Below, one piece after another: positions 4,745 to 54,636 of a stretch of DNA of 64,000 nucleotides (the first letter of the stretch is position 1; each line of letters begins with the position of its first letter). The stretch lies in NCBI GenBank assembly GCA_963718875.1, contig OY970378.1:1011691-1075690 (forward strand). The letters run 5' to 3'. Below the pieces are notes generated by a model, which worked only from the letters and a program-made list of their open reading frames with translations, was not told where the DNA came from and made no database searches. A program made the position numbers and the translations under genes. This DNA is from Candidatus Parcubacteria bacterium (GTDB lineage: Bacteria; Patescibacteriota; Saccharimonadia; UBA4664; JBIOIQ01).

Positions 4745-4850
4745 TTGTCATTCCCTATCGGAAGCCAGCAAAATGATTTGTTTTATACAATCCGCGCTCC
4801 GGATAGGGAATCCAGGGCTTTATCTATTTTTATTTCTGGGTCCCTCTTCG
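4745..4850. repeat. modular palindromic intergenic repeat, gene-less copy (module 1 TGTCATTCCC-TATCGG..CCGGATA-GGGAATCCAGG, then module 2 TTTTTATTTCTGGGTCCC)
   Basis: same modules recur at 31372-31403/31700-31745, 32750-32936, 45167-45290 and 34364-34398. Confidence 0.6.
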
Positions 4851-5830: not shown

Positions 5831-5888
5831 GACCCCATCGTCTAGCGGTTAGGACATCCCGGCATTAGCCGGGACAACCGGGGTTCGA
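5831..5888 (+). pseudogene. truncated tRNA-Glu-like gene fragment (5' acceptor strand, D arm, altered anticodon arm, 5' T stem; no 3' end)
   Basis: 26 nt plus 14 nt identical to the intact tRNA-Glu at 6149; anticodon arm replaced (TCCCGGCATTAGCCGGGA); no complementary 3' acceptor strand downstream. Confidence 0.5.
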
Positions 5889-6148: not shown

Positions 6149-6223
6149 GACCCCATCGTCTAGCGGTTAGGACACCAGGTTTTCATCCTGGCAACCGGGG
6201 TTCGATTCCCCGTGGGGTCACCA
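6149..6223 (+). tRNA. tRNA-Glu (anticodon TTC)
   Basis: 75-nt cloverleaf folded by hand; acceptor GACCCCA/TGGGGTC; anticodon loop TTTTCAT; T arm CGGGGTTCGATTCCCCG; encoded CCA. Confidence 0.9.
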
Positions 6224-7528: not shown

Positions 7529-8122
7529 ATGCACAGCTTCATCGACTTGCATTGCGGATCTCGGCTATTCGTCGAGGTGGAACTTGACGAATCCATCCGA
7601 ACGGCCCAGGCTCGTGAACGCATCGAGATCATCTTGCTCGATCGGCAAATCGGCCGTCTTTTCCCTACCCTGAAGGGGTTCATGTACTACCCGCCCGACG
7701 AGCGGTGGAATGTGACCAGAATCGTGGAGCGCCTGCACAACCTCCTGAAGGAGCTGTTCGGGGACGACTACACGGTTTCCTACTGCAAGGACCGCGAGAG
7801 CGACGACATCATCATGCGCGAAGCTGATGGGTCCGAGCACGTCGTTGAGCCCAGCCGGCCACTAGGTCGCTTCGGCGCGACCAGGAGGCTTGTTATGCCG
7901 GCTAGTATCGAAGAGTACTTGGACCGTATTGCCAGAGAAGCAGCCGATTACTTCGACCGAGGTGATAGAGGAGCGGCTATCAGCTGCGTTCTGTCTCTGC
8001 TGCAAAGTCATCCCGACACTCAATCCATCGGGCGCACTTCTTCAACTTTGCCTCTCCTATTGGCGGGATGGGAAGGAGGTAGAGACAGGTTCATCGAAAC
8101 GATTACCGGGTTCCAGCCTTGA
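7529..8122 (+). CDS. hypothetical protein (GC-rich islet)
   Basis: 197-aa ORF; SD AGGAGAG 4 nt before ATG; local GC much higher than the flanks; possible terminator-like hairpin near 8150-8185. Confidence 0.45.
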   Translation: MHSFIDLHCGSRLFVEVELDESIRTAQARERIEIILLDRQIGRLFPTLKGFMYYPPDERWNVTRIVERLHNLLKELFGDDYTVSYCKDRESDDIIMREADGSEHVVEPSRPLGRFGATRRLVMPASIEEYLDRIAREAADYFDRGDRGAAISCVLSLLQSHPDTQSIGRTSSTLPLLLAGWEGGRDRFIETITGFQP

Positions 8123-16340: not shown

Positions 16341-16397
16341 GAAAGTCCGACTTTAATCTTTGTTGATTGCTGCAATCCGGATTTAAAGTCGGACTTT
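16341..16397. repeat. paired nested-palindrome repeat R1 (AAAGTCCGACTTTAATC ... GATTTAAAGTCGGACTTT)
   Basis: two AAGTCNGACTT palindromes about 39 bp apart in inverted orientation; family also at 20176, 21216 and 41359. Confidence 0.6.
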
Positions 16398-20175: not shown

Positions 20176-20232
20176 TGAAGTCGGACTTCAATCTTTGATA
20201 ATTTAAGCAATATTGATTTGAAGTCTGACTTC
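20176..20232. repeat. paired nested-palindrome repeat R2 (GAAGTCGGACTTCAATC ... GATTTGAAGTCTGACTTC)
   Basis: same family as R1, R3 and R4; inner segment TTAAGCAAT shared with R3. Confidence 0.6.
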
Positions 20233-21215: not shown

Positions 21216-21272
21216 AGAAGTCAGACTTTAATATTCGCCGCATTAAGCAATCCAGATTTGAAGTCTGACTTC
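21216..21272. repeat. paired nested-palindrome repeat R3 (AGAAGTCAGACTTTAAT ... GATTTGAAGTCTGACTTC)
   Basis: same family; lies between two minus-strand genes. Confidence 0.6.
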
Positions 21273-32749: not shown

Positions 32750-32936
32750 TGACATCCCCTATCGGCCGTTCGAGGCTCTGAGGAGCCCTCAGGCTCTCGA
32801 AGAGAAGCCAGTTATGGCTGAGTGCTTACGTAATCTGCGCTCCGGATAGGGGATCGAGGCAAAATTATCCAACTGTTTGTTTTGCTTATTTTTTTGTTTT
32901 TTTTATTTCTGGTTCCCCGCCTTCGCGGGGATAACA
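32750..32936. repeat. modular palindromic repeat, gene-less copy with long internal loop (TGACATCCCCTATCGG ... CCGGATAGGGGATCGAGG ... TTTTTTTATTTCTGGTTCCCCGCCTTCGCGGGGA)
   Basis: module 1 and module 2 both present; perfect mini-palindrome CCCCGCCTTCGCGGGG. Confidence 0.55.
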
Positions 32937-40050: not shown

Positions 40051-41349
40051 ATGCCTAAATCAATCAAAATTACCGGTGGAAGACCCTTGCGGGGCGAGGT
40101 TACTATTAGTGGAGCCAAAAACGCCGCTACCAAGATGATGATAGCGAGCCTGCTGACGGACGAGCCGGTAGTTTTGCACAATTGCCCGCAGATTGGGGAC
40201 GTTGAAATAACGGCCGAAATTTGCCGGGCGGTGGGTGCAAAAGTGACGTTTGACGGTTCAACGGTTAGCCTCCATACGCCAAAAATATTGCGGCCAGCAG
40301 TTAAGCGGTTAAGCCAAAATAATCGCATTTCGGTTTTAGCTATTTCGCCTTTACTGCACCGCGCCGGTAGCGCTGCTGTACCAAAAGTATCGGGTGACTT
40401 TATTGGACCGAGGCCGGTTAACTTTCATCTTGATGCTTTGCGAAAAATGGGAGCAAACATCGAAGAAACTAGTAAAGGCTACAAGGCAAAAGCTACAGGA
40501 CTCCATGGAACGTCCATCACCTTGCCGTATCCAAGTGTTGGTGCGACGGAAAACGTTATTTTTGCGGCTGTTCTTGCCCAAGGTAGGACGATTATCAAAA
40601 ATGCGGCTACTGAGCCGGAAATAACCGACATCATTAAGATGCTCCAACGCATGGGAGCGATCATTGAGTTTCGGGCCAACCGAACCATCATTATTGACGG
40701 CGTAGAAAGACTGGGCGGCGTAGAGTACAGCATAATCCCCGACCGCATTGAGGCCGCTTCATATGCCATTATGGCCGTAGCAACGGACGGGGACATTTTG
40801 GTTAAAGGTGCAAGGCAAGAAGACCTCATGACCCTCCTCAATACCATAAGACGAATTGGGGCAGACTATACAATTGAGGAAGGCGGAATTCGCTTTAAAA
40901 GGATAGGCCGGACATTAATTGGTATTGAGCTTGAAACCGATACCCATCCCGGATTTATGACTGACTGGCAACAGCCTATGGTGGTACTCTTAACCCAGGC
41001 TGAAGGGATTTCGGTAGTACATGAAACGGTTTATGAAGATCGTTTTGGGTATGTTGAAACACTAAAGGCGATGGGATCAAGCATTACGGTTTTTAGTAAA
41101 TGTTTGGGTGAACTACCTTGCCGATTTAACGGTGAGGGTTATAAACACAGTGCCGTCATTAAGGGTCCTACGCCTTTACGTTCAGCCAAAGTGGTGATTC
41201 CAGATATTCGGGCCGGGATGGCTCAAGTCATCGCAGCATTAATAGCCGAGGGCACTTCGGAGTTGACGGGGTTAGAGCACTTGTTGCGCGGATACGAGAA
41301 CTTGCTTGATAAATTGAAGTCCGTGGGCGCGGATTTTAGCGCCAAATAG
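40051..41349 (+). CDS. murA: UDP-N-acetylglucosamine 1-carboxyvinyltransferase
   Basis: 432 aa; EPT-fold MurA colinearity (KISGAKNAA-type N-terminus, catalytic Cys region). Confidence 0.85.
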   Translation: MPKSIKITGGRPLRGEVTISGAKNAATKMMIASLLTDEPVVLHNCPQIGDVEITAEICRAVGAKVTFDGSTVSLHTPKILRPAVKRLSQNNRISVLAISPLLHRAGSAAVPKVSGDFIGPRPVNFHLDALRKMGANIEETSKGYKAKATGLHGTSITLPYPSVGATENVIFAAVLAQGRTIIKNAATEPEITDIIKMLQRMGAIIEFRANRTIIIDGVERLGGVEYSIIPDRIEAASYAIMAVATDGDILVKGARQEDLMTLLNTIRRIGADYTIEEGGIRFKRIGRTLIGIELETDTHPGFMTDWQQPMVVLLTQAEGISVVHETVYEDRFGYVETLKAMGSSITVFSKCLGELPCRFNGEGYKHSAVIKGPTPLRSAKVVIPDIRAGMAQVIAALIAEGTSELTGLEHLLRGYENLLDKLKSVGADFSAK

Positions 41350-41358
41350 TCTAGATCA

Positions 41359-41423
41359 GAAGTCAGACTTCAAATCTAGACCACCTAAGCATGGTTATTA
41401 AAGTCTGACTTTTAAATCAAGCA
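41359..41423. repeat. paired nested-palindrome repeat R4 (GAAGTCAGACTTCAAATC ... AAAGTCTGACTTTTAAATC)
   Basis: same family; immediately downstream of murA. Confidence 0.55.
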
Positions 41424-41917: not shown

Positions 41918-43711
41918 TTACTTATATCCTTCCGCCTGCAGTTCAAATAATTCGCGATAATGGCCACCCTTAATTTTCACCAAATCATTGTGAGTACCAT
42001 GTTCAATTAGCCGGCCTTTGTCCATGACGTAGATGTGGTCGGCGTTACGAACCGTACTAAAACGGTGGGAAATAATGATGGTGGTTTTATCTTTTTGGGT
42101 TTTATTAATCTGCTGAAATATTTCGTATTCTCCCCGAGCATCAATAGCGCTAGTTGGTTCGTCTAGAATCAAAATCCCGGCGTTACGAAAAAAAGTCCGG
42201 GCAAGCGCAATGCGCTGCCATTGTCCGCCCGACGGCTCTATCCCCTCCGCAAACGAACGATCTAATATTTGGTGGTATTTTTTGTTGTAACGCTCGATAA
42301 AATCATTAGCGCCAGCCGCTTTTGATGCCTTGATCATCCGGGTGTCGTTATGATAATCCAGCACATCGCCCAGCTTAATGTTGTCGCCTGCCGACAAATA
42401 ACCGTAGTGGTTGAAATCTTGGAACAGTACCCCTATATGGCGGTACCAGTCAGACAGTTTAAGCTCTTTAATATTGTGGCCGTTGATTAATATCTCGCCT
42501 TCATCAACGTCATAAAACCGCATCAAGAGCTTGATGAGAGTGGTTTTACCGGCGCCGTTTTCGCCTACTATTGCGACTGCCTCACCGGGCTGGATGACCA
42601 TGGAGAAGTCTTTAAAAATGTAGTTTTTGGTGTGGGGATATTTAAAGGAAATATTTTTTACCTCAATGAGCGGAACTTCTTTGGCTGGCAATGAAACTGG
42701 CTGGGCTGGCTCAACTACTCTTGGTTCAAGCGCCAGTAAATCAAATGTATCTTCAATGTAACGCTGGTTGTCTTGCATGCGCTGGTATGCGGTAGATAGG
42801 CTAGTGAGACTCCCTGAAAAATTATTCACAACTTGGCGGTAAAACTGAAAATCCCCTAAGCCAAATTTGCTGCCTCGCCCTAAAACTTTCAAGAGCAGCC
42901 ATATGTCCACACCCAGCTCAACGGCGCCACTCAATATAGCTGCACCGCTACGGCGCTTCAATGCCCGCTTTTCGATTTTGACGTCTAAGTCTTTAAATCT
43001 TTGAAAAAAAGTTTTCCATAAACCCACCATGTGGTTATAAATACCGGTCATTTTAATTTCTTTGACCATTTCCGGGTTAAGCAGGGTGGTGCGTGAGTTC
43101 CACATATGACGCCAGTCATCACCAATAATGTCCCAGCGGCGCCAACGTTCTAAACTGGTTTGAGTCTCAATTATTACGACGGGCGCAACTGAAATTAATA
43201 AAACAAACAACAAAATGGGGTTTAATAGCACTAAGGCGGCTGCAGCTACCAATAAGGTTACGAGGGAGGAAATAAGTTGGAATAGATTGGTCGAAAATTG
43301 TGTTAAGGCATAGCGGTTTTCGTCCACTTTGGCTAGTTGGGTATTAAAGCTGGGGTCTTCATAGTAGCTTTGATCTAGACGTTGAAACTGGCTAAACAGT
43401 CGCTGCTGCAAGTGCATATCAAAACGATAATCCGTGACGGAACTCCAGTATCTATCGAGGCTTGCCAGTAGCTGGCCAAGAAAGCTAAGCCCAGCCACTA
43501 AGGCTGTCAGGGCAAATATGGGCGTTGTTGAGCCGTTATGATCTACCAGGTAATTGACCACAAGATTAATAATGCGGCCAGCCAGGTAAGCGTTGGCTAG
43601 AGGCAAAATGCCCTGTAGTATTTGAAGGACGAAGCGGCCAAAATAAAGTAAAGGGGATGTTTCCCAAGCAAAAAGCACAGCCCGCTTGGTTGTTTGCCAA
43701 AACTTTTTCAT
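41918..43711 (-). CDS. ABC exporter, fused permease/ATP-binding protein (MsbA-like type I)
   Basis: N-terminal six-helix TMD; C-terminal NBD with GENGAGKTT, LSGGQWQRIALAR, ILILDEPTSAID. Confidence 0.75.
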   Translation of the reverse strand: MKKFWQTTKRAVLFAWETSPLLYFGRFVLQILQGILPLANAYLAGRIINLVVNYLVDHNGSTTPIFALTALVAGLSFLGQLLASLDRYWSSVTDYRFDMHLQQRLFSQFQRLDQSYYEDPSFNTQLAKVDENRYALTQFSTNLFQLISSLVTLLVAAAALVLLNPILLFVLLISVAPVVIIETQTSLERWRRWDIIGDDWRHMWNSRTTLLNPEMVKEIKMTGIYNHMVGLWKTFFQRFKDLDVKIEKRALKRRSGAAILSGAVELGVDIWLLLKVLGRGSKFGLGDFQFYRQVVNNFSGSLTSLSTAYQRMQDNQRYIEDTFDLLALEPRVVEPAQPVSLPAKEVPLIEVKNISFKYPHTKNYIFKDFSMVIQPGEAVAIVGENGAGKTTLIKLLMRFYDVDEGEILINGHNIKELKLSDWYRHIGVLFQDFNHYGYLSAGDNIKLGDVLDYHNDTRMIKASKAAGANDFIERYNKKYHQILDRSFAEGIEPSGGQWQRIALARTFFRNAGILILDEPTSAIDARGEYEIFQQINKTQKDKTTIIISHRFSTVRNADHIYVMDKGRLIEHGTHNDLVKIKGGHYRELFELQAEGYK

Positions 43712-43754
43712 TTAGTAATCATAACAATAAACACTCGCGGTCGGAAAGTCCTGG

Positions 43755-43788
43755 CAGCAGGACGAGGCGCGAGCGCCCCGCCCTGCTG
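43755..43788 (-). terminator. GC hairpin CAGCAGG...CCTGCTG downstream of the IMPCH-domain gene copy 1 (no U tract)
   Basis: near-identical hairpin recurs at 44467-44495 after copy 2. Confidence 0.3.
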
Positions 43789-43802
43789 TTTGATGTCGCA
43801 CT

Positions 43803-44361
43803 TCAGCCCAGCTGTTCCAACACCCACGCCGCAACCCCAGCTGCATAGTTGCGGCAGTACTTCACTGCCTTGCCCGTGAGATAAACGCGCATTCCTCCGG
43901 AAAGCACGTTGTCGTGTGCCTGAAGATCTGACAGCACGGCGGAGTAGTTCTCGGGGTCAACCACAATGAATGGACCATCTTCGTGGTTCTTGATGCACCC
44001 CCAAATCATACTTGGGCCACCGACGTCGATACCGGCGAAAGAAGAAGGAGGGGTGGGATAGAGATTGCAAACCACTGCGTCTATATGACCGTAGCCTGCT
44101 GCAGCCAGCTCTGCCACATCCTCCTCCACGGATCTCCGAGCCAGAATGGGTCCGTGGATCCCGGGGTGCAAGGTCTTAACTCGACCTCCCATCATCTCTG
44201 GCTGACCAGTGACCTGCGCGACTGAGGTGAAGTCGATGCCCGCTTCAGCCAGAAAATCTCCTGTACCGCCACTGGCCACGATCTCCCAGCCCAGCTGCTT
44301 GAGCCGTTTTAGCGAAGACCCGAAGGCCTTTGGTGTTTGAGACGGAAATCAGAACGCGCAT
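43803..44361 (-). pseudogene. stand-alone PurH N-terminal IMP cyclohydrolase (MGS-like) domain gene, copy 1, frameshifted
   Basis: [20 protein letters not shown] reads in one frame and [15 protein letters not shown]...GGRVKTLHPGIHGPILARR...IDAVVCNLYP in the next; the shift lies in a TTTT/AAAA run at 44307-44310; no AICAR formyltransferase domain follows. Confidence 0.5.
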
Positions 44362-44466
44362 ACGACGTGCTCCTTCTGGAGAAATGGCCGGAACAGTTTC
44401 CGACGGGGTAATTATGGGTTCAAGGATAAAACTAAGCAAGCGTAAGCGATTAATAAGTGTTGGGAA

Positions 44467-44495
44467 GCAGGACGAGGCGCGAACGCCCCGTCCTG
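44467..44495 (-). terminator. GC hairpin CAGGACG...CGTCCTG downstream of the IMPCH-like gene copy 2 (no U tract)
   Basis: paralogous to the hairpin at 43755-43788. Confidence 0.3.
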
Positions 44496-44507
44496 GTGGG
44501 CTGTCGA

Positions 44508-45068
44508 TCAGTGCGGAGGTGGTCCCATCTCTCTAAACAGATCAAGGACAGATTGCGAGTACAGCGTTGTGTACTCGTACGTCTTAAGCGCCAGATTCCA
44601 CCTTGTGTAATCAGACAGCTGCCCTCCGTTGCTGCCTAACTCATCGATCACACTGGGATAGTCACCTGGATCTACTAGCACAACCACATGTCGCCAGTTG
44701 GCTGCTGCCGTCCAAAGGAGGGCATGCCCTCCATGATCTCCTCCGTCAAGACCAGGCTTCCTTAAATTGCAAACGACCCAGTCGATTGGACGAGAAAGGA
44801 TTGCCTTCAACCAAGCCATGTCGGACTCGACGTCACGGTGAGCTCCAATAGCAGAAAAGATGCCTGGATCTACTGCCCTCCGCCTTCTACCACCTTCAAC
44901 TTCCTCGAAGAGCAGAGCTGGTTTGTATTCACGGATGGGCCGACGAGTTGTACCCAAGGCTTCCTTAGTGCCTCCGCCGGCCATGAGGGTCAGTCCGAGT
45001 GCTTCGAGCGTGTCTGCCAGCTCTTCCAAGCCAGTCTTGTCATCAACGCTCAACAGTGCATACGCCAT
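44508..45068 (-). CDS. stand-alone PurH-N (IMPCH/MGS-like) domain protein, copy 2, degenerate catalytic motifs
   Basis: ALLSVDDKTG, GGGT and IDWVVCNL conserved, but the GGRVKTLHP motif is replaced by GGRRRRAVDP; GC-rich. Confidence 0.45.
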   Translation of the reverse strand: MAYALLSVDDKTGLEELADTLEALGLTLMAGGGTKEALGTTRRPIREYKPALLFEEVEGGRRRRAVDPGIFSAIGAHRDVESDMAWLKAILSRPIDWVVCNLRKPGLDGGDHGGHALLWTAAANWRHVVVLVDPGDYPSVIDELGSNGGQLSDYTRWNLALKTYEYTTLYSQSVLDLFREMGPPPH

Positions 45069-45166
45069 GCGAGTCGCTCCTTGTCGAAAGAAAAGGCCGG
45101 GCTGTCCGGCGGAGCTATTATGCTTGTTAAAGCCGTTATTTGCAAGCTTAAGCTTTTTTTTCTATC

Positions 45167-45290
45167 TGTCATTCCCTACCGGAAACCAAACTCCACCATT
45201 GCCTAGTTTGGTGCTCCGGATAGGGAATCCAGGCATTTTTAGCTTTCACATTTTTATTTTCTTTTCTGGGCCCCCTATCCGGAGCGCAGA
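45167..45290. repeat. modular palindromic repeat, gene-less copy (TGTCATTCCCTACCGG..CCGGATAGGGAATCCAGG ... TTTTCTTTTCTGGGCCCCCTATCCGG)
   Basis: module 1 and module 2 both present, with an inner hairpin ACCAAACT..AGTTTGGT. Confidence 0.55.
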
Positions 45291-45343
45291 TGAGCTTTTA
45301 ACAGTTTGTACCGGCTTCCGATAGGGGGTGACAAAAAAGACAC

Positions 45344-45447
45344 AAGGAGAGACGCGCATGACAGGGCGCTTTAAGTTGCACGGGTGCCTCCCGTGTCGAT
45401 AGTAATTGTTACTCAAAAGCCGATTACACGGGAGGCACCCGTGCAAC
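45344..45447 (+). promoter_or_regulatory. purL leader: SD plus 14-codon mini-ORF (45358-45402) running into a perfect 22-bp inverted repeat (45375-45396 / 45426-45447)
   Basis: AAGGAGA-8nt-ATG encodes MTGRFKLHGCLPCR; left arm GTTGCACGGGTGCCTCCCGTGT, 29-nt loop, right arm exact reverse complement; about 60 nt upstream of purL. Confidence 0.35.
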
Positions 45448-45507
45448 TATGGCATGACATGGATGGCTTGATCGCTTATACTGCCTTTATATAAAGGTAG
45501 TCAGCGG

Positions 45508-48477
45508 TTGGCAGACGTGCACAAAATTGAAGTCATACCCAAAACCAGTGACTCGCGAGCCGAGCAACTGCTGCGACTGTGGGGCGAGCAAACCAAGGGT
45601 AAAGTTAAAACTGTATGGCTGCGCGACGCCTACACTATTACAAAACCACTCGACTCCAAACAGGCCGGAAATGTGGCGGCAATGCTAACCAACCCGGTAA
45701 CCCAAACCGTAGAAGTCCACCCTGACACCCGTCATGGAGTGCCTCAAGAAGCTTTTGATTGGTCAATTGAAATCGGTTATTTGCCTGGTGTAACAGATAA
45801 CGTTGGCCATACCGCCAGGGTTAGTATCGAAGATTTGCTGGGTACCCCTTTTGTAGATCAGGAGGCGGTTTACTCATCGCAGATTATTTTAATTGAAGCC
45901 GAGCTTGACCGGGCTGAGGTAGATGATTTGGCAGCGGGGCTGGCGAACCGTTTGATTCAACGTATCGTTGTGCAATCGCATAGTGCTTGGGAAGATGGCG
46001 AAGCTGCTAAAATTGTGGTGCCTCAGGTTAAACTAAAACCGCCTGCCCCACCCACATTGATTGACCTAGATGTGAGTGATGATGAACTGGTAGCAATCGG
46101 CCAAAAGGGCATCGCAAATGAAAACGGCAATCGCCGCGGCCCGCTGGCTCTAGACCTAGCTAGCATGAAAGCAATTCAAGCCTACTTTGCCAAGCTGGAG
46201 CGCAAGCCGACAGACATTGAACTTGAATCCATAGCCCAGACTTGGTCTGAACATTGTAAACACACTATTTTTGCTGGACCATTGGATGAAATTGAAGACG
46301 GAATTTACAAAACCTACATCAAAGCTGCCACCCAAAAGGTACGAGCCGACAAAGGCAGTCGGGATCTGTGCGTTTCAGTGTTTACCGATAACGCCGGAGC
46401 CATTCGGTTCGATGATGACTATCTTGTAACACATAAAGTTGAAACCCATAATAGCCCGTCGGCACTGGATCCGTTTGGTGGCGCAATTACCGGTATTGTA
46501 GGCGTTAACCGCGACACCATGGGGTTTGGGATGGGCGCAAAACCAGTCATAAACGTCTATGGTTTTTGCTTGGCCGATCCAGAAGACAAAGCACTGCTCT
46601 ATCGCGACCCAAAGCTAACATCGGCCATGCTTCCGCCGGCCCGGATTATGAGCGGGGTGATTGCAGGAGTAAATGCCGGTGGTAACCAATCGGGTATCCC
46701 CTCCCCTCAGGGCTTCATGTTTTTCGATGAGCGCTATAAGGGAAAGCCACTGGTATTCGCAGGTACGCTGGGAATTATTCCGAACAAAGTCGGGGGCAAA
46801 GATTCCCACGAAAAGCAGGCTCGTCCAGGAGATTTAATCGTAGTCATGGGCGGACGCGTAGGCCTAGATGGCATTCATGGTGCCACATTTGCTTCGGTCG
46901 CATTAGATGAAGATAGTCCAGCAGCAGCAGTCCAAATAGGCGACCCGATTACCCAAAAGAAAATGAGCGATGCTTTGATCAAAGAGGCCCGCGATGCAGG
47001 ATTGTATTCGAGTATTACCGATAACGGCGCCGGTGGATTGTCCTGTAGTGTGGCCGAAATGGCCAAAGAAGCCGGTGGTTTTGAGGTGCAAATTGAAAAA
47101 GTGCCGTTAAAGTATCCTAACCTGGCCCCTTGGCAAACCTGGGTGTCTGAGAGCCAGGAGCGAATGACCCTGTCGGTGCCGGCAGAGCATTGGGAAGCGC
47201 TCAACGACCTGATGAAGAGTCGTGGTGTAGAGGCGATGGTGATCGGAACCTTTACTGATACTGGACGCGGGTTGGTGACGGACGACGGGGAAACGGTACT
47301 CGACATTGACTTGGAGTTTTTACATGATGGGCTGCCAAAAACGGCGCGTTCAAGCAATAATTACCACCCGCCGAAGGTAGCTGAATCAACATTGCCTGAG
47401 CCAAGCGATTGGAACCAGGCAGTACTTAAATTATTGGGGTCGTTGAATTTGGCTAGCTTTGAGTTTTTATCAAGCCAATACGATCACGAGGTTCAGGCCG
47501 GTTCGGTGTTAAAACCGCTCCAGGGGCGCGGAAGGGTTAACTCGGAGGCAAGTGTAACGCGTCCGGTTTTGTCCTCGCCCAAGGGGGTGGTTTTGTCGCA
47601 AGGCCTTTACCCGTCTTACAGCGAAATGGATCCTTACGCAATGGCGGCAGCTAGCATCGACACGGCCATTCGTAACGTTGTGGCAGCTGGTGCGGATCCT
47701 GACACAATTGCACTTCTGGATAATTTTTGCTGGTGCAGCTCTAATGATCCTGAACGTTTGGGCCAACTCAAACTAGCAGCCCAAGCCTGCTATGACTATG
47801 CCGTAGCATTTGGAGCGCCGTTTATATCTGGTAAAGACAGTATGTTTAACGACTTTAAAGGCTTTGACGCGAACGGTAACCCAATTCAAATTTCCATACC
47901 CCCTACTTTGCTTGTTTCCAGTATGGGGTTGATTAATGATGCTAGTAAGGCAGTATCGATTGATCTTAAAAAAGCCGGTGATGTGATTTACTTGCTCGGA
48001 GAAACGGCCGACGAGTTAGGGGGATCAGAATACTCGCGAGTTGCTGAGTTGTCAGGCGGCCAGGTACCGCAGGTAGACGCTAAGCGTAATTTACCCATTT
48101 ACCAGTCGTTGGCTCGAGCAATTAATAGAGATTTGGTGGCTTCAAGTATAAGCGTGACCCGCGGTGGCCTGGCAATGGCAGTGGTGAAGACGGCCCTTGC
48201 AGGGCGACTGGGAGTGAACGTTTCGATTGATGAGATACCTGGAGCTGCCTCTGGTTCTGTAGCTAGATTGTTTAGCGAGTCGCAAGGCCGGATAGTGGTT
48301 TCAGTGGCTCCGGAAAACCAAGCCGCTTTTGAGAAAGAAATGGGGTCGACTATGGGTCAGATTGGGTCTGTCACGGATGATGGTGCGATTACGATCACAG
48401 CGAATGGATCAGTTTTAGTGAAAGTGCCAGTCGACGATGCGCTCGAAACATATCGAAAAAGGTTTAAAGACGTATGA
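45508..48477 (+). CDS. purL: phosphoribosylformylglycinamidine synthase subunit PurL with an N-terminal PurS-like extension (989 aa)
   Basis: core small-PurL motifs (WSEHCKH, AIR-synthase-like domains); about 200 extra N-terminal residues with a PurS-like ...AAGLANRLIQRIVV tail; TTG or GTG start. Confidence 0.8.
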   Translation: MADVHKIEVIPKTSDSRAEQLLRLWGEQTKGKVKTVWLRDAYTITKPLDSKQAGNVAAMLTNPVTQTVEVHPDTRHGVPQEAFDWSIEIGYLPGVTDNVGHTARVSIEDLLGTPFVDQEAVYSSQIILIEAELDRAEVDDLAAGLANRLIQRIVVQSHSAWEDGEAAKIVVPQVKLKPPAPPTLIDLDVSDDELVAIGQKGIANENGNRRGPLALDLASMKAIQAYFAKLERKPTDIELESIAQTWSEHCKHTIFAGPLDEIEDGIYKTYIKAATQKVRADKGSRDLCVSVFTDNAGAIRFDDDYLVTHKVETHNSPSALDPFGGAITGIVGVNRDTMGFGMGAKPVINVYGFCLADPEDKALLYRDPKLTSAMLPPARIMSGVIAGVNAGGNQSGIPSPQGFMFFDERYKGKPLVFAGTLGIIPNKVGGKDSHEKQARPGDLIVVMGGRVGLDGIHGATFASVALDEDSPAAAVQIGDPITQKKMSDALIKEARDAGLYSSITDNGAGGLSCSVAEMAKEAGGFEVQIEKVPLKYPNLAPWQTWVSESQERMTLSVPAEHWEALNDLMKSRGVEAMVIGTFTDTGRGLVTDDGETVLDIDLEFLHDGLPKTARSSNNYHPPKVAESTLPEPSDWNQAVLKLLGSLNLASFEFLSSQYDHEVQAGSVLKPLQGRGRVNSEASVTRPVLSSPKGVVLSQGLYPSYSEMDPYAMAAASIDTAIRNVVAAGADPDTIALLDNFCWCSSNDPERLGQLKLAAQACYDYAVAFGAPFISGKDSMFNDFKGFDANGNPIQISIPPTLLVSSMGLINDASKAVSIDLKKAGDVIYLLGETADELGGSEYSRVAELSGGQVPQVDAKRNLPIYQSLARAINRDLVASSISVTRGGLAMAVVKTALAGRLGVNVSIDEIPGAASGSVARLFSESQGRIVVSVAPENQAAFEKEMGSTMGQIGSVTDDGAITITANGSVLVKVPVDDALETYRKRFKDV

Positions 48478-49274: not shown

Positions 49275-49352
49275 ACTCGGGTCAGGGAGAAGGAGAACAA
49301 CTTCGTCCCCTTCTCCCTGCGAACTGCTGCATCACTAGGCCGCATTGGCAGC

Positions 49353-49571
49353 CTAGAAGGCCTTGAACGGGAAGAGCTCGATGCCTCCACCGGGCAAGGG
49401 CGCCGTCACGAAGACTCTTTCTGTCGCGTTTGGCCAAACGCATGCCAGAGCCCATAAAGCCGACTGAGCCAACACTAAGGCCTCAGAAAGCGTCATGGGA
49501 TCAGCCGGAAACGGTTTAAAACCTTCTGGGGCTTCGAACGCCACTCCCCAGTGGGCTTTATCGTTAGCCAC
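49353..49571 (-). CDS. hypothetical small protein
   Basis: 72 aa; GTG start with AAGGGAG SD; no family recognised. Confidence 0.3.
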   Translation of the reverse strand: MANDKAHWGVAFEAPEGFKPFPADPMTLSEALVLAQSALWALACVWPNATERVFVTAPLPGGGIELFPFKAF

Positions 49572-49613
49572 TTTTAGCTCCCTTCACTCGGTCGGTCATG
49601 CTAATTATGTCCT

Positions 49614-52778: not shown

Positions 52779-53756
52779 GTGATTTCAAAGAAAGACATTA
52801 TTGCCGCCATCCCTCACGCGCTAGAGGCGGTGGACTTGCCGGGATTGGGACCAAAACAAAATGGAAAGGTGCGGGACTTTTACGCCTATGGCGGTAAGCG
52901 AATCACTGTAACTACTGACCGCCAATCGGCCTTTGACCAAATGTTGGGACATGTGCCGTTTAAGGGGTCGGTCTTAAATTTGCTGGCGGCCTGGTGGTTT
53001 GAGCAAACTCGGGCGATTGTGCCAAATCATCTGGTGTCCGTTCCGGATCCTAATGTTTTGGTGTCGCAGGAGTGCCAGGCGATTCCGGTGGAGATGATTG
53101 TGCGCGGATACATGAGCGGGGTGACCAAAACGTCGATTTGGTACTCCTACCAACAAGGTGAGCGACAGATTTACGGGTTGGATTTTCCAGATGGGTTGGT
53201 CAAAAATCAGGAGCTACCATCGCCAGCGATTACACCCACGACTCATGGTGGAGGGGCCGATGGGCACGACGAGCGATTGACGCGGGATGAGATCATTGGT
53301 CGAGAAATTGTCGAGGAATCACTGTACAAAGAGATGGAGAGGGCCAGTCTGGAACTGTTCAAATTTGGCGGCGAAAGAGCCAAGGAGCGAGGGTTGATTC
53401 TGGTAGATACCAAATACGAATTTGGGCTTTATGAAGGTAAACTGATGTTGATTGATGAGGTTCATACGCCAGATTCGTCGCGGTTCTGGAAGGCTGGTAG
53501 TTACCATGAACTACTCTCGGCTGGGCAAGAACCGGAAAATTTTGATAAGGAGTTTATTCGGCTGTGGTACGCAGACAAAGGCTACCGTGGTGACGGACCA
53601 GCCGAACCGATGAGTAAAGACTTGGTTGTTCAGGCTGCCGAGCGATACATTGGCGTATACGAGATGCTGACCGGGAAGACGTTTGAGCCTTATGAGTATC
53701 CGATTGAAGAGCGAATTCAAGAGTCGGTTCGGAGCTACATCAATGGCAGCGGTTGA
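52779..53756 (+). CDS. purC: SAICAR synthetase, long (about 325 aa) type
   Basis: GKVRDFY ... LILVDTKYEFG PurC motifs; longer than the approximately 240-aa bacterial form. Confidence 0.75.
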   Translation: MISKKDIIAAIPHALEAVDLPGLGPKQNGKVRDFYAYGGKRITVTTDRQSAFDQMLGHVPFKGSVLNLLAAWWFEQTRAIVPNHLVSVPDPNVLVSQECQAIPVEMIVRGYMSGVTKTSIWYSYQQGERQIYGLDFPDGLVKNQELPSPAITPTTHGGGADGHDERLTRDEIIGREIVEESLYKEMERASLELFKFGGERAKERGLILVDTKYEFGLYEGKLMLIDEVHTPDSSRFWKAGSYHELLSAGQEPENFDKEFIRLWYADKGYRGDGPAEPMSKDLVVQAAERYIGVYEMLTGKTFEPYEYPIEERIQESVRSYINGSG

Positions 53757-54636
53757 AGCAAAATTAGCGGCCGCCAAAGCTACCCGCAAGATGGCGGCCG
53801 ACTCACTACACCAGGCCTTGAGCGATCTTTTGCCGGGTTCTGAACCGATTTCCGAGGTGCGCTTACGCGACCGGTGGCTGACGATTATGCGCTCGAGTGG
53901 TACGATTTACGATGATGGCTGGTACATGCCGCCGCCACATGGTATGGCGGTGCTTTTTAGCACGGATGAGGACATTTCGCGGACCAATTTCGAGGTGTTA
54001 AGGCCAGAACCCATCTGGGCTCGAGATGATATTTTTCTTGATCGTGGCAGAGGAATCATTATGGTTTATGCCTCTCCCGTTGATAGGTCGTCCCATATGA
54101 TCGGCGACTTTGAAATGATGTTATATTTTGGCGACAAGAAGTCAATTAAGGACCATTTTGCAAAGGTGCTGGCCCTTGACTACCAGGTATTTCAAAAAGT
54201 TATTGTAGGAATGACGCTGTCAGAAGTTACGGAGCTGGCAGAGTCATCGATGAGCGAGCTAGGTTTAGTGAATAATGTAGTAAGTCTCAATGATCCGGCC
54301 GGGACGAACATTGGGCATACTGTTCCGTCGACCGATCAGGATTGGACGACAGAAGAAAACGCTGTTTTTGCTCAAGGCGATTGGAAAAAAAGTTTGGACG
54401 TTATTGCCAAAAAACGCCGATTTGTAAATAAGACTGAGCAGTTCAAAGTTCAGCCAGGCCTGGGTTTCAATATCGAGCCGCGACCATTGTCAAAAGATGA
54501 TCCCAGTATCCCGATGGCATCATTTCATACTACGGTTCTGGTCCATGAAGACGGCCGCAACGAGCTGTTGACTAATTTTGATGAATTATTTGAACTGGCT
54601 GGGATGGATTACATGCCATGGTTAGCGGACTTCTAA
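53743..54636 (+). CDS. pita-bread (M24 peptidase/creatinase-like) fold protein inside the pur cluster (tentative)
   Basis: GTNIGHTVPS, GFNIEPRPL, TTVLVHEDG resemble the M24 metal-ligand blocks; start overlaps the purC end by 14 nt. Confidence 0.4.
   Translation: MAAVEAKLAAAKATRKMAADSLHQALSDLLPGSEPISEVRLRDRWLTIMRSSGTIYDDGWYMPPPHGMAVLFSTDEDISRTNFEVLRPEPIWARDDIFLDRGRGIIMVYASPVDRSSHMIGDFEMMLYFGDKKSIKDHFAKVLALDYQVFQKVIVGMTLSEVTELAESSMSELGLVNNVVSLNDPAGTNIGHTVPSTDQDWTTEENAVFAQGDWKKSLDVIAKKRRFVNKTEQFKVQPGLGFNIEPRPLSKDDPSIPMASFHTTVLVHEDGRNELLTNFDELFELAGMDYMPWLADF

What the first reader, a model, noticed from the sequence alone, without database searches (positions are those of the whole stretch)
43755..45068. 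Tandem pair of stand-alone PurH N-terminal (IMP cyclohydrolase) domain genes on GC-rich DNA, one frameshifted in an A4/T4 run and the other with a degraded active-site motif
Both minus-strand ORFs align to the MGS-like IMPCH half of PurH (ALLSV.DKTG, STGGT/GGGT, I D x VVCNLYP, GGP...KNH). Neither has the about 330-aa AICAR formyltransferase half. Each gene plus its downstream GC hairpin (CAGGACGAGGCGCGARCGCCCCGYCCTG) is duplicated in tandem. Copy 1 needs a -1 correction in the TTTT run at 44307-44310 to read [34 protein letters not shown]. Copy 2 replaces GGRVKTLHP with GGRRRRAVDP. They lie between an ABC exporter gene and the purL operon, on DNA that is much GC-richer than the adjacent pur genes. 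This could be an acquired, decaying split-purH fragment. If PurH (AICARFT) is encoded elsewhere, these could be the organism's only IMPCH source, as split PurH arrangements are known in archaea (my recollection, not checked).
Basis: partly seen in the sequence, partly recalled or inferred. Interest (0 to 1): 0.6.

Follow-up and report, generated by a model that had tools for sequence, protein, structure and literature searches.

The report
Two stand-alone IMP cyclohydrolase-domain genes
Where related small-genome (CPR-type) bacteria carry a complete purH gene, this genome has two separate genes for only its IMP-cyclohydrolase half: one keeps the catalytic residues but is broken by a one-base insertion, and the other has lost them yet is conserved in a relative, so it looks re-purposed rather than junk.

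Summary
Two minus-strand genes (copy 2: 44508-45068; copy 1: 44308-44361 plus 43803-44306) match only the N-terminal IMP cyclohydrolase (IMPCH) domain of PurH. The 64-kb window contains no AICAR formyltransferase domain. Copy 1 keeps all four catalytic residues but has one extra A in an A4 run after codon 18. A second assembly of run ERR12037361 shows the same gene structure. Copy 2 has K66R, Y104R and K137A.

The interpretation needs revising. Stand-alone IMPCH genes are already known (purJ/PurH2). The pair is not a random foreign island. Two relatives (PurL 66-68% identical) carry a full-length purH in exactly this slot, divergent from purL. The closest relative (PurL 73%) carries a single 182-aa ortholog of copy 2 between the same ABC exporter and purL, with a conserved promoter and leader. 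Copy 2, that ortholog and a metagenomic protein share replacement motifs (GGRRxR, NLR, GDxGG) and intact reading frames. Copy 2 is therefore a maintained, non-canonical IMPCH-fold protein and not a decaying copy. Copy 1 is the degrading one.

I could not test whether an AICAR formyltransferase lies elsewhere in the 1.19-Mb genome. Verdict: a new variant of a known kind, of moderate interest.

The parts
45117..45145 (-). Promoter-like element of copy 2 (TTGCAA-17 nt-CATAAT), preceded by GCTTAAGCTTGC
   Evidence: Consensus scan, 9 of 12 matches. The same block is conserved upstream of the L083 ortholog and, less well, upstream of copy 1.
45096..45110 (-). Leader hairpin GCCGGACAGCCCGGC followed by a U-rich tract, lying between the -10 element and the Shine-Dalgarno site of copy 2
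   Evidence: Flagged as terminator-like. The 5-bp stem is kept in all three leaders (copy 2, L083, copy 1) with one C-G to U-G change. Its function is inferred, not shown.
45077..45082 (-). Shine-Dalgarno site AAGGAG, 8 nt before the copy 2 ATG
   Evidence: Read from the sequence.
44508..45068 (-). Copy 2: an intact 186-aa stand-alone IMPCH-fold gene with non-canonical active-site positions (K66R, Y104R, K137A; D125 kept)
   Evidence: AlphaFold2 model pLDDT 88.9. Best PDB matches are the ATIC IMPCH domain (TMq 0.85) and ForH. The ortholog is L083 2025-2573.
44463..44498 (-). 3' hairpin of copy 2: 12-bp GC-rich stem, UUCG loop, no U tract
   Evidence: -24.1 kcal/mol, z -3.9.
44411..44439 (-). 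Promoter-like element of copy 1 (TTGCTT-17 nt-CATAAT). It is weaker than that of copy 2 and falls below the scan threshold.
   Evidence: Aligned in register with the copy 2 and L083 promoters. Not listed by the scan.
44370..44377 (-). Shine-Dalgarno site AGAAGGAG, 8 nt before the copy 1 ATG
   Evidence: Read from the sequence.
44308..44361 (-). Copy 1, codons 1-18 ([18 protein letters not shown]), in the frame of the ATG
   Evidence: Homologous to the PurH N-terminus. If read on in this frame, translation stops at 44245 after 39 codons.
44307..44310 (-). A4 run (T4 on the plus strand) containing one extra base: the frameshift site
   Evidence: The Logan contig of ERR12037361 has the same 186-aa and 158-aa gene calls and the same 228-nt spacing.
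43803..44306 (-). Copy 1, remaining 167 codons plus stop, in the shifted frame. It holds GGRVKTLHP, NLYP, IDVGG and KNH.
   Evidence: Only 36 of 47 highly conserved columns are kept.
43753..43788 (-). 3' hairpin of copy 1: 15-bp stem, CUCG loop, no U tract. It is 89% identical to the copy 2 hairpin.
   Evidence: -34.5 kcal/mol.
41918..43711 (-). Context: a 597-aa ABC exporter gene directly downstream on the same strand. It serves as a synteny anchor shared with L083.
45508..48477 (+). Context: purL (purS-fused, 989 aa), the first gene of the divergent pur operon. It serves as a synteny anchor.

Best explanation
This is the purH slot of a Patescibacteria/CPR-type lineage. The bifunctional gene has been replaced here by two separately transcribed genes that each encode only the IMPCH domain. 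Each gene has its own promoter-like element, leader hairpin, Shine-Dalgarno site and 3' GC hairpin.

Copy 1 is a purJ/PurH2-type cyclohydrolase. Read through, it would cyclise FAICAR to IMP and would need a separate AICAR formyltransferase. As sequenced, it is inactivated by a 1-nt insertion after codon 18, and it already carries an unusual load of substitutions at conserved positions. It is therefore most likely a recently disabled or dispensable gene.

Copy 2 belongs to a small divergent clade, together with the syntenic L083 gene and P0151. This clade keeps the IMPCH fold, the phosphate-loop residues, R64, N102 and D125. It has arginines in place of K66 and Y104 and a small residue in place of K137. 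It is maintained by selection and is probably not a canonical cyclohydrolase. The most likely role is as a ribonucleotide-binding protein, or a re-tooled enzyme, tied to the adjacent pur operon.

Shown: the anatomy, the homology, the synteny and the residue states. Inferred: expression, loss of copy 1 function, and any role for copy 2.
For: - **Domain identity:** for both copies; for the fold of copy 2.
- **No AICARFT in the window:**
- **Ancestral slot:** L084 and L086 (PurL 68% and 66% identical) have a purH of 544 and 531 aa on the minus strand, immediately divergent from purL. L083 (PurL 73%) has ABC exporter, then a 182-aa IMPCH-like gene, then purL.
- **Orthology of copy 2 and L083_182:**
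  - 33% identity, E = 8e-21, against 26% for copy 1.
  - About 280 nt of alignable upstream DNA, including the promoter and leader.
  - 11 shared derived residues.
  - An NJ clade with P0151 at 68% bootstrap.
- **Constraint on copy 2:**
  - Intact ORFs in the window, L083 and P0151.
  - Identity by codon position of 0.44/0.56/0.29.
  - R66 and R104 shared by all three proteins. In 234 other IMPCH domains, K66, Y104, D125 and K137 are kept in 228-232.
- **Copy 1:**
  - All four catalytic residues are present.
  - Only 36 of 47 highly conserved columns are kept, below every one of 232 canonical domains (mean 44.9, minimum 37).
  - The frameshift is reproduced in the Logan assembly.
- **Precedent:** stand-alone IMPCH genes exist and are active (PMC6486802, PMC6797443).
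Against: - The pur operon next door (purL, Q, B, K, E, C, M, N) is intact. The cell therefore presumably needs a working IMPCH, which argues that copy 1 is functional and the frameshift is an error, or that copy 2 still catalyses the reaction.
- PMC6797443 notes that PurH2 acts largely by orienting FAICAR through backbone contacts. Loss of side chains may therefore not abolish activity.
- The Logan contig comes from the same read set, so it excludes an assembler artefact but not a systematic read error.
- Copy 1 never groups with copy 2 in NJ trees (1-2% bootstrap). It is closer to high-GC PurH (49-51%) than to L084/L086 PurH (40%). A simple in-situ duplication does not predict this.
- The 3' hairpins of the two copies are 89% identical, whereas the L083 hairpin is unrelated. 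That fits poorly with a duplication older than the split between the window lineage and L083.
- Only three or four members of the copy 2 clade are known.
Confidence: 0.55

Rival explanations
1. The frameshift is a homopolymer read or consensus error. Copy 1 is an intact, functional stand-alone IMP cyclohydrolase (purJ) that completes the pathway together with an AICAR formyltransferase (purV, or a purP-like enzyme) encoded elsewhere. Copy 2 is an accessory paralog.
For: - The error would sit in a homopolymer.
- The Shine-Dalgarno site is strong and correctly spaced, and all four catalytic residues are present.
- The neighbouring pur genes are all intact.
- In the literature, 44 of 50 bacterial purJ genes co-occur with purV (PMC6486802).
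Against: - An independent assembler working on run ERR12037361 yields the same 158-aa call and the same 228-nt spacing.
- A 4-base run is short for a systematic error.
- All the long, well-conserved genes read in the window (purL and the other seven pur genes, murA, the ABC exporter) are intact. No systematic frameshift scan was run.
- Copy 1 retains conserved positions less well than any of 232 canonical domains.
Confidence: 0.22
2. Both genes are non-functional relics of a truncated purH that are slowly decaying.
For: - Copy 1 is frameshifted.
- Copy 2, L083_182 and L087_195 have lost 3 of 4 catalytic residues and 16-28 of 47 conserved positions.
- There is no AICARFT partner in the window.
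- GC content is elevated.
Against: - Copy 2, L083_182 and P0151 are only about 30-36% identical to each other, yet all keep open frames of 182-186 codons with start codons. Shine-Dalgarno sites are seen for copy 2 and L083_182; no DNA is held for P0151.
- Third codon positions are saturated while second positions are 56% identical.
- The promoter and leader are roughly 75-80% identical (by eye) between the window and L083.
- The same replacement residues, R66 and R104, recur.
- Neutral decay to this divergence would be expected to introduce stops and frameshifts.
Confidence: 0.13
3. Copy 1 is a comparatively recent horizontal arrival from a high-GC donor (an Actinomycetota-type purH 5' half). 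It was placed into, or recombined with, a duplicate of the resident copy 2 cassette.
For: - GC3 is 62.5% against a window mean of 46%.
- Copy 1 is 49-51% identical to high-GC PurH proteins, against 40% to the lineage's own PurH in L084/L086.
- In NJ trees it sits among those sequences.
- It is absent from L083.
- The Logan contig that carries the pair is only 1533 bp, so the assembly graph breaks on both sides of it.
Against: - Its promoter-like element, leader, Shine-Dalgarno site and 3' hairpin are homologous to those of copy 2. A foreign gene would not bring these with it.
- The N-terminal part of purH in L084 is also about 14 points richer in GC3 than its purL, so the GC offset may be a property of the gene.
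- Rate differences between lineages can explain the identity pattern.
- Copy 1 and copy 2 share rare derived states such as R-to-W before AAKNH.
Confidence: 0.08
4. The copy 1 frameshift is bypassed by programmed +1 ribosomal frameshifting or by transcriptional slippage at A_AAA_A.
For: tRNA-Lys could re-pair perfectly after a +1 slip on AAAA, and the shifted frame is open from 44348.
Against: - There is no stimulatory element: no upstream Shine-Dalgarno-like sequence, no slow or stop codon in the A site, and no downstream structure.
- Four As are too few for efficient polymerase slippage (established knowledge).
- No relatives carry copy 1, so conservation of the site cannot be shown.
Confidence: 0.02

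Closest known systems
purJ / PurH2: naturally unfused IMP cyclohydrolase (e.g. Archaeoglobus fulgidus AF1811; purV/purJ pairs in Prevotellaceae, Desulfovibrionales, Fervidobacteriaceae)
   Same: A protein of about 185 aa consisting only of the MGS-like IMPCH domain of PurH and encoded apart from any AICARFT domain. Copy 1 has the full catalytic set (K66, Y104, D125, K137). It lies next to pur genes, as do 16 of 50 bacterial purJ genes (PMC6486802; PMC6797443).
   Different: Copy 1 is frameshifted and unusually divergent at conserved positions. No purV partner is seen in the window. There are two tandem paralogs, and the second lacks three catalytic residues. The host is a CPR-type bacterium, a group not covered in those surveys.
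Bifunctional PurH/ATIC (AICAR formyltransferase / IMP cyclohydrolase)
   Same: Sequence homology over residues 1-195, and structural homology for copy 2. The pair occupies the genomic slot that holds full-length purH in relatives L084 and L086.
   Different: The roughly 320-aa AICARFT half is absent. The dimeric formyltransferase site therefore cannot exist.
ForH of the formycin pathway (PDB 6NKO), a stand-alone PurH-N-terminal homolog
   Same: A stand-alone IMPCH-fold protein of about 200 aa. Copy 1 matches it at 7.9e-23. The copy 2 model superposes on it with TMq 0.80-0.83 and TMt 0.77-0.79.
   Different: ForH sits in a Streptomyces C-nucleoside gene cluster. Here the context is a primary purine operon in a 1.19-Mb genome. 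Similarity to ForH is lower than to ordinary PurH.
Pseudoenzyme or ligand-binding uses of the MGS-like fold (e.g. the IMP/UMP-binding allosteric domain of carbamoyl-phosphate synthetase)
   Same: Copy 2 keeps the fold and the phosphate-loop residues but not the catalytic side chains. CPS allosteric domains are its next-best structural matches after PurH and ForH (ranks 26-35, TMq about 0.48).
   Different: This is an analogy only. No binding data exist, and sequence similarity to the CPS domain is marginal (E = 0.04-0.17, for copy 1 only).

Membership tests
PurH IMP cyclohydrolase domain (MGS-like, PF02142 plus the N-terminus of PF01808) | Significant sequence match over the whole ~190-residue domain | tested here: met
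   NF002049: copy 1 at 1.7e-46 (profile 7-196) and copy 2 at 6.8e-27 (profile 7-195). PDB PurH/ATIC matches down to 2.9e-32.
PurH IMP cyclohydrolase domain (MGS-like, PF02142 plus the N-terminus of PF01808) | IMPCH three-dimensional fold | tested here: met
   Copy 2 only. AlphaFold2 pLDDT 88.9, pTM 0.85. Foldseek top hits are the human ATIC IMPCH domain, TMq 0.85, E = 1.8e-14. Copy 1 was not modelled.
PurH IMP cyclohydrolase domain (MGS-like, PF02142 plus the N-terminus of PF01808) | Catalytic residues K66, Y104, D125, K137 (human ATIC numbering; kept in 228-232 of 234 other domains) | tested here: inconclusive
   Copy 1: all four present. Copy 2: K66R, Y104R, K137A, D125 kept. The feature is met for copy 1 and not met for copy 2.
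PurH IMP cyclohydrolase domain (MGS-like, PF02142 plus the N-terminus of PF01808) | Uninterrupted reading frame | tested here: inconclusive
   Copy 2 is intact at 186 codons. Copy 1 is interrupted by one extra A at 44307-44310, and the same structure appears in the Logan assembly.
purJ / PurH2 (stand-alone IMP cyclohydrolase replacing purH) | IMPCH domain encoded without a fused AICARFT domain | tested here: met
   Both genes end in stop codons about 185 codons after their starts, followed by hairpins. No AICARFT signal lies downstream or anywhere else in the window.
purJ / PurH2 (stand-alone IMP cyclohydrolase replacing purH) | The genome lacks full-length purH and has a separate AICAR formyltransferase (purV or purP) | not testable with these tools
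   Only 64 kb of the 1,189,924-bp contig is available. The record could not be fetched.
purJ / PurH2 (stand-alone IMP cyclohydrolase replacing purH) | Converts FAICAR to IMP, or complements an IMPCH-deficient strain | not testable with these tools
   Requires the experiment done for AF1811 in PMC6797443.
Bifunctional PurH | C-terminal AICAR formyltransferase domain (PF01808 core) | tested here: not met
   hmmsearch --max with a full-length PurH profile, and tblastn: no hit to profile positions 200-521 in any frame of the window.
ForH-type cyclohydrolase of C-nucleoside antibiotic clusters | Location in a formycin/pyrazofurin-type biosynthetic cluster | tested here: not met
   The neighbours are an ABC exporter, purL, purQ, purB, purK, purE, purC, purM and purN.
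Intrinsic (rho-independent) terminator | GC-rich hairpin followed directly by a U tract | tested here: not met
   The hairpins are strong, but neither is followed by a T run and the terminator scan did not list them. They may still act as U-tract-less terminators or RNA stabilisers; this is inference.

The most novel reading that the evidence does not exclude
Copy 2, L083_182 and P0151 (and perhaps L087_195) define an undescribed family of IMPCH-fold proteins in CPR bacteria. In this family the catalytic Lys66 and Tyr104 are replaced by conserved arginines and Lys137 by a small residue. Members would be encoded next to, and divergently from, the pur operon. They would act either as purine-intermediate sensors or regulators (ZMP, FAICAR or IMP), or as re-tooled enzymes for the last purine step in lineages that have lost bifunctional PurH.
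Probability: 0.3. Interest if true: 0.65.

Novelty: new variant of a known kind. Interest (0 to 1): 0.45.

Why it matters
Stand-alone IMP cyclohydrolases are known but rare, and none have been described in CPR/Patescibacteria, whose nucleotide metabolism is debated. This locus catches a purH slot in transition. Relatives hold full-length purH, a closer relative holds a single divergent half-gene, and this genome holds a canonical-but-broken copy beside a divergent-but-maintained copy. If the divergent clade is functional, it is a new pseudoenzyme or re-tooled enzyme family derived from a core purine enzyme, and standard annotation misses it. The orthologs L083_182 and P0151 carry no precomputed Pfam hit; copy 2 carries only PF01808 and falls below the MGS threshold. 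The locus also bears on whether such genomes can finish de novo purine synthesis. If it is not functional, the locus is an ordinary case of gene decay in a reduced genome.

Tried and rejected
1. **Riboswitch or other known RNA in the intergenic regions.** Rfam at gathering thresholds finds only four tRNAs in the window. At E <= 1 there are only chance miRNA and CRISPR-DR hits on the palindromes. The two hairpins are not a CRISPR array (two copies, 710 nt apart) and lack attC features.
2. **A purH remnant in the purQ-purB gap (49275-49613).** In other CPR lineages purH sits there. I found no PurH signal. The gap instead holds a conserved 72-aa ORF. In this sub-lineage purH lies upstream of purL instead.
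3. **The unknown 317-aa ORF in the pur cluster as a substitute AICARFT.** Rejected, because its homologs coexist with full-length purH in L010, L013 and L015.
4. **'Short' top hits to copy 1 as genuine stand-alone genes.** They are fragments of full-length purH broken by frameshifts or contig ends in high-GC assemblies. P0036 is a possible true split.
5. **Fetching the 1.19-Mb record to look for purV or purH.** The look-ups returned only Logan contigs without DNA.
6. **Metagenome scan with the copy 2 clade alignment.** The derived patterns were not specific, and all 80 loci were canonical full-length purH.
7. **Signature-column test for a link between copy 1 and L084/L086.** Only 4 informative columns were found, so the test is uninformative.
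8. **A Biopython NJ bootstrap** timed out and was replaced by a numpy NJ. No maximum-likelihood tree could be built.
9. **Pfam scans of 10 small or overlapping ORFs**, run to gauge assembly frameshift frequency, gave nothing usable.
Full report
**What is at the locus**

Two ORFs lie head-to-tail on the minus strand between an ABC exporter gene (41918-43711) and the divergently transcribed purL (45508-48477). Copy 2 (44508-45068) is an intact 186-codon ORF. Copy 1 starts at the ATG at 44361 and reads [18 protein letters not shown]. It then meets an A4 run (44307-44310). In the ATG frame, translation stops after 39 codons at 44245. The homologous sequence continues one base out of frame, from 44306 to the stop at 43803. 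The gene caller's 158-aa GTG ORF (43803-44279) is the tail of this gene.

Both products match only the N-terminal IMP cyclohydrolase domain of PurH:
- NCBIfam NF002049 matches positions 7-196 of 510, at 1.7e-46 for corrected copy 1 and 6.8e-27 for copy 2.
- Pfam gives the MGS-like domain plus the first ~58 positions of AICARFT_IMPCHas.
- PDB PurH/ATIC chains match down to 2.9e-32, and the stand-alone homolog ForH (6NKO) matches at 7.9e-23.

I built a profile from 12 full-length CPR PurH proteins and ran it without filters against every six-frame ORF of at least 25 aa. It found no trace of the formyltransferase half anywhere in the 64 kb.

**The repeat structure**

It folds into 12-15-bp GC stems with UUCG/CUCG loops and no U tract. 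One G-to-A difference keeps pairing with U.

Aligning the two 710-nt units shows that the coding parts are near saturation. Protein identity is 32-33%, and identity by codon position is 0.39/0.55/0.32. The non-coding frame, by contrast, is shared:
- GCTTAnGCTTGC, with a -35-like TTGCAA/TTGCTT.
- 17 nt, then CATAAT.
- A short GC leader hairpin followed by a U-rich tract.
- AAGGAGC eight nucleotides before the ATG.
- The 3' hairpin, identical at 33 of 37 positions.

The duplicated unit is therefore a whole expression cassette, not just a gene plus a hairpin.

**Composition**

The window averages 47.1% GC. Forty-nine other ORFs average 46.3% (sd 3.0) with GC3 of 46.1% (sd 5.4). Copy 1 is 57.9% GC with GC3 62.5%. 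Copy 2 is 54.0% with GC3 52.4%. The locus is GC-elevated, but modestly so, and mainly in copy 1.

**Active-site state**

In an alignment with 234 other IMPCH domains, K66, Y104, D125 and K137 (human ATIC numbering, checked against the motifs GGRVKTLHP, NLYP, IDIGG and AAKNH) are present in 228-232 sequences.

Copy 1 has all four, along with R64, T67, H69, N102, N138 and H139. However, it keeps only 36 of the 47 columns that are at least 90% conserved. That is fewer than any of 232 canonical domains (mean 44.9, sd 2.1, minimum 37). The changes include K14T, F106T and RAAAKNH to WGCIKNH.

Copy 2 has K66R, Y104R and K137A, and keeps 31 of the 47 columns. It retains S10, K14, G36, T37, R64, N102, D125 and G127. 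Its AlphaFold2 model is confident (pLDDT 88.9, pTM 0.85), except around residues 45-65, which include the altered K66 loop. The model superposes on the IMPCH domain of human ATIC (TMq 0.85) and on ForH (TMq 0.80-0.83).

**Who the host is, and what relatives carry here**

The PurL protein finds Patescibacteria/CPR and DPANN sequences. The genome itself is not among the GTDB species representatives, where the best match is 64% to a Saccharimonadales MAG. The two genes are recorded on a single 1,189,924-bp contig in NCBI/ENA.

Many CPR relatives have the gene order purL-purQ-purH-purB-purK-purE-purC-(unknown)-purM. A protein search with PurL found closer relatives, and their contigs are decisive:
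- L084 (PurL 68% identical) and L086 (66%) carry a full-length purH (544 and 531 aa) on the minus strand, immediately divergent from purL. This is exactly where the pair sits in the window.
- L083 (PurL 73%, the closest relative) has the same 597-aa ABC exporter, then a single 182-aa minus-strand gene, then purL.

The 182-aa L083 protein carries no precomputed Pfam hit, but it is IMPCH-like. It is 33% identical to copy 2 (E = 8e-21) and 26% identical to copy 1. It has R66, R104 and S137. About 280 nt upstream of it aligns with the region upstream of copy 2. This includes the REP-like palindromes, GCTTAAGCTTGCAAA, CATAATAGCTC and the leader hairpin. Copy 2 and L083_182 are therefore orthologs in a conserved slot.

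**A small divergent clade**

Searching copy 2 against 1.84 billion cluster representatives found nothing closer than about 42% identity. Among the hits, P0151 (183 aa, JGI metagenome) shares the same replacement motifs: GGRRYR, NLRPP, GDAGG and TAAGN.

In NJ trees, copy 2, L083_182 and P0151 form a clade with 68% bootstrap support. L087_195 joins them in the best tree at 26% support. It is a 195-aa degenerate IMPCH-like gene lying between purQ and purB in another relative.

Copy 2 and L083_182 share 11 derived residues, against 3-5 for pairs that involve copy 1. Between copy 2 and L083_182, third codon positions are at random-level identity (0.29) while second positions are at 0.56. All three proteins are complete ORFs.

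This pattern fits a fast-evolving gene that is still constrained as a protein. It does not fit a neutral relic. The recurrence of arginine at both position 66 and position 104 points to a remodelled site under constraint.

**Origin**

The PurH N-termini of L084 and L086 are 59-64% identical to fragments of high-GC purH genes. One of these lies in a 71.6%-GC contig with sucC-sucD-purN-purH-folD order. That order is the Actinomycetota arrangement (my knowledge, e.g. Mycobacterium). The same N-termini are only 34-44% identical to other CPR PurH. The sub-lineage's purH is thus of an 'actinobacterial' type, probably through an old transfer.

Copy 1 is 49-51% identical to those high-GC sequences but only 40% identical to L084/L086 PurH, and it never joins copy 2 in trees. 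This can be explained in two ways. Either the CPR branches evolve faster, or copy 1 is a later import into a duplicate cassette. I cannot separate the two without a maximum-likelihood tree and more relatives.

One discordance remains unexplained. The 3' hairpin is 89% identical between the two window copies but unrelated in L083, while the promoter is more similar between copy 2 and L083 than between the two window copies. Gene conversion between tandem units is a plausible but unshown cause.

**Is the frameshift real?**

Logan's independent assembly of run ERR12037361 contains a 1533-bp contig with a 186-aa gene, a 228-nt gap, and a 158-aa gene. This is exactly the geometry seen in the window. 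That excludes an assembler or polishing artefact. It does not exclude a systematic read error.

All the long conserved genes I read in the window are intact, and a 4-base run is a weak error context. I put about 75% on a real insertion. I see no features of programmed recoding. A restart at the GTG at 44279 would give a protein that lacks strand beta-1 and helix alpha-1, including the SVS phosphate-binding motif. Such a protein is unlikely to fold or function (inference).

**Comparison with known systems**

Unfused IMPCH genes are established. PMC6486802 calls them purJ and counts 50 in bacteria and 4 in archaea. They usually co-occur with an AICARFT-only purV, and this combination generally anticorrelates with purH. 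PMC6797443 shows that Archaeoglobus AF1811 (PurH2) is active and complements E. coli, and recalls that the human and Staphylococcus domains work when separated.

Copy 1 fits this kind apart from its frameshift. Copy 2 fails the catalytic-residue criterion, so it should not be filed as a cyclohydrolase, although it clearly shares the fold. I found no paper that describes such degenerate stand-alone paralogs or purJ in Patescibacteria.

**Verdict**

The locus is best read as the remodelled purH slot of a CPR lineage. It holds one canonical-type purJ that has just been, or is being, lost. It also holds one member of a small, previously unannotated, divergent IMPCH-fold clade that selection still maintains.

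The key open questions are the read-level state of the A run, the presence of an AICARFT elsewhere in the genome, and the biochemical activity of copy 2. All three need data I could not reach.

Noticed in passing
window 53683-54636 (+): A 317-aa ORF between purC and purM has no Pfam family. Homologs occupy the same position in the CPR pur clusters L013, L015, L009, L048 and L033, and in L010 as part of a longer ORF. It is a conserved unknown gene associated with pur operons.
   Followed up: partly
window 49353-49571 (-): A 72-aa ORF in the 340-nt purQ-purB gap is conserved. L083 has two paralogs in the same gap (32-37% identity), and L084 has a 75-aa ORF there. It is unrelated to PurH.
   Followed up: partly
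window 45374-45448: A perfect 23-bp inverted repeat with a 29-nt spacer lies just upstream of the purL promoter-like site (45454-45482). The 146-nt region folds at -73 kcal/mol (z = -9). It matches no Rfam family and is unique in the window.
   Followed up: partly
window 4745-4816, 32832-32876, 45206-45334; L083 2720-2840: A dispersed REP-like palindromic element (GCGCTCCGGATAGGGAATCCAGG and its partner TCCCTATCGGAAGC) has four exact 11-mer copies in the window. It is conserved upstream of the copy 2 ortholog in L083.
   Followed up: partly
window 16342-16397, 20177-20232, 21217-21272, 41336-41376: A second family of intergenic palindromic repeats (GAAGTCnGACTTC ... GAAGTCnGACTTC, about 56 nt).
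   Followed up: no
window 7529-8122 (+): This 197-aa ORF has the most deviant composition in the window (56.6% GC, GC3 67%) and no Pfam hit. It may be foreign DNA.
   Followed up: no
window 5831-5856 and 6149-6174: The first 26 nt of tRNA-Glu (6149-6223) are duplicated exactly, 318 nt upstream of the tRNA, without a detectable second tRNA.
   Followed up: no
L087 6939-7526 (-) (GCA_030150485.1): Another stand-alone, catalytically degenerate IMPCH-like gene (195 aa; the K66 loop is deleted, with Y104K and K137M) lies between purQ and purB in a relative. That locus shows no purH within 16 kb.
   Followed up: partly
L084 8105-10639; L086 11398-13914: purB and purK are fused into single ORFs of 844 and 838 aa in two relatives. 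They are separate genes in the window.
   Followed up: no
PDB 9ou7 chain DA: The best PDB sequence match to copy 1 is a full-length PurH chain deposited as part of a Methanosarcina acetivorans 50S ribosomal subunit dimer. This hints that PurH-fold proteins can have binding roles outside purine synthesis.
   Followed up: no
window 45069-45122, 44362-44416; L083 2574-2631: The conserved leader downstream of CATAAT has a 5-bp GC hairpin followed by a U-rich tract that could pair with the Shine-Dalgarno region. It is a possible attenuator or anti-SD element shared by all three IMPCH-like genes.
   Followed up: partly
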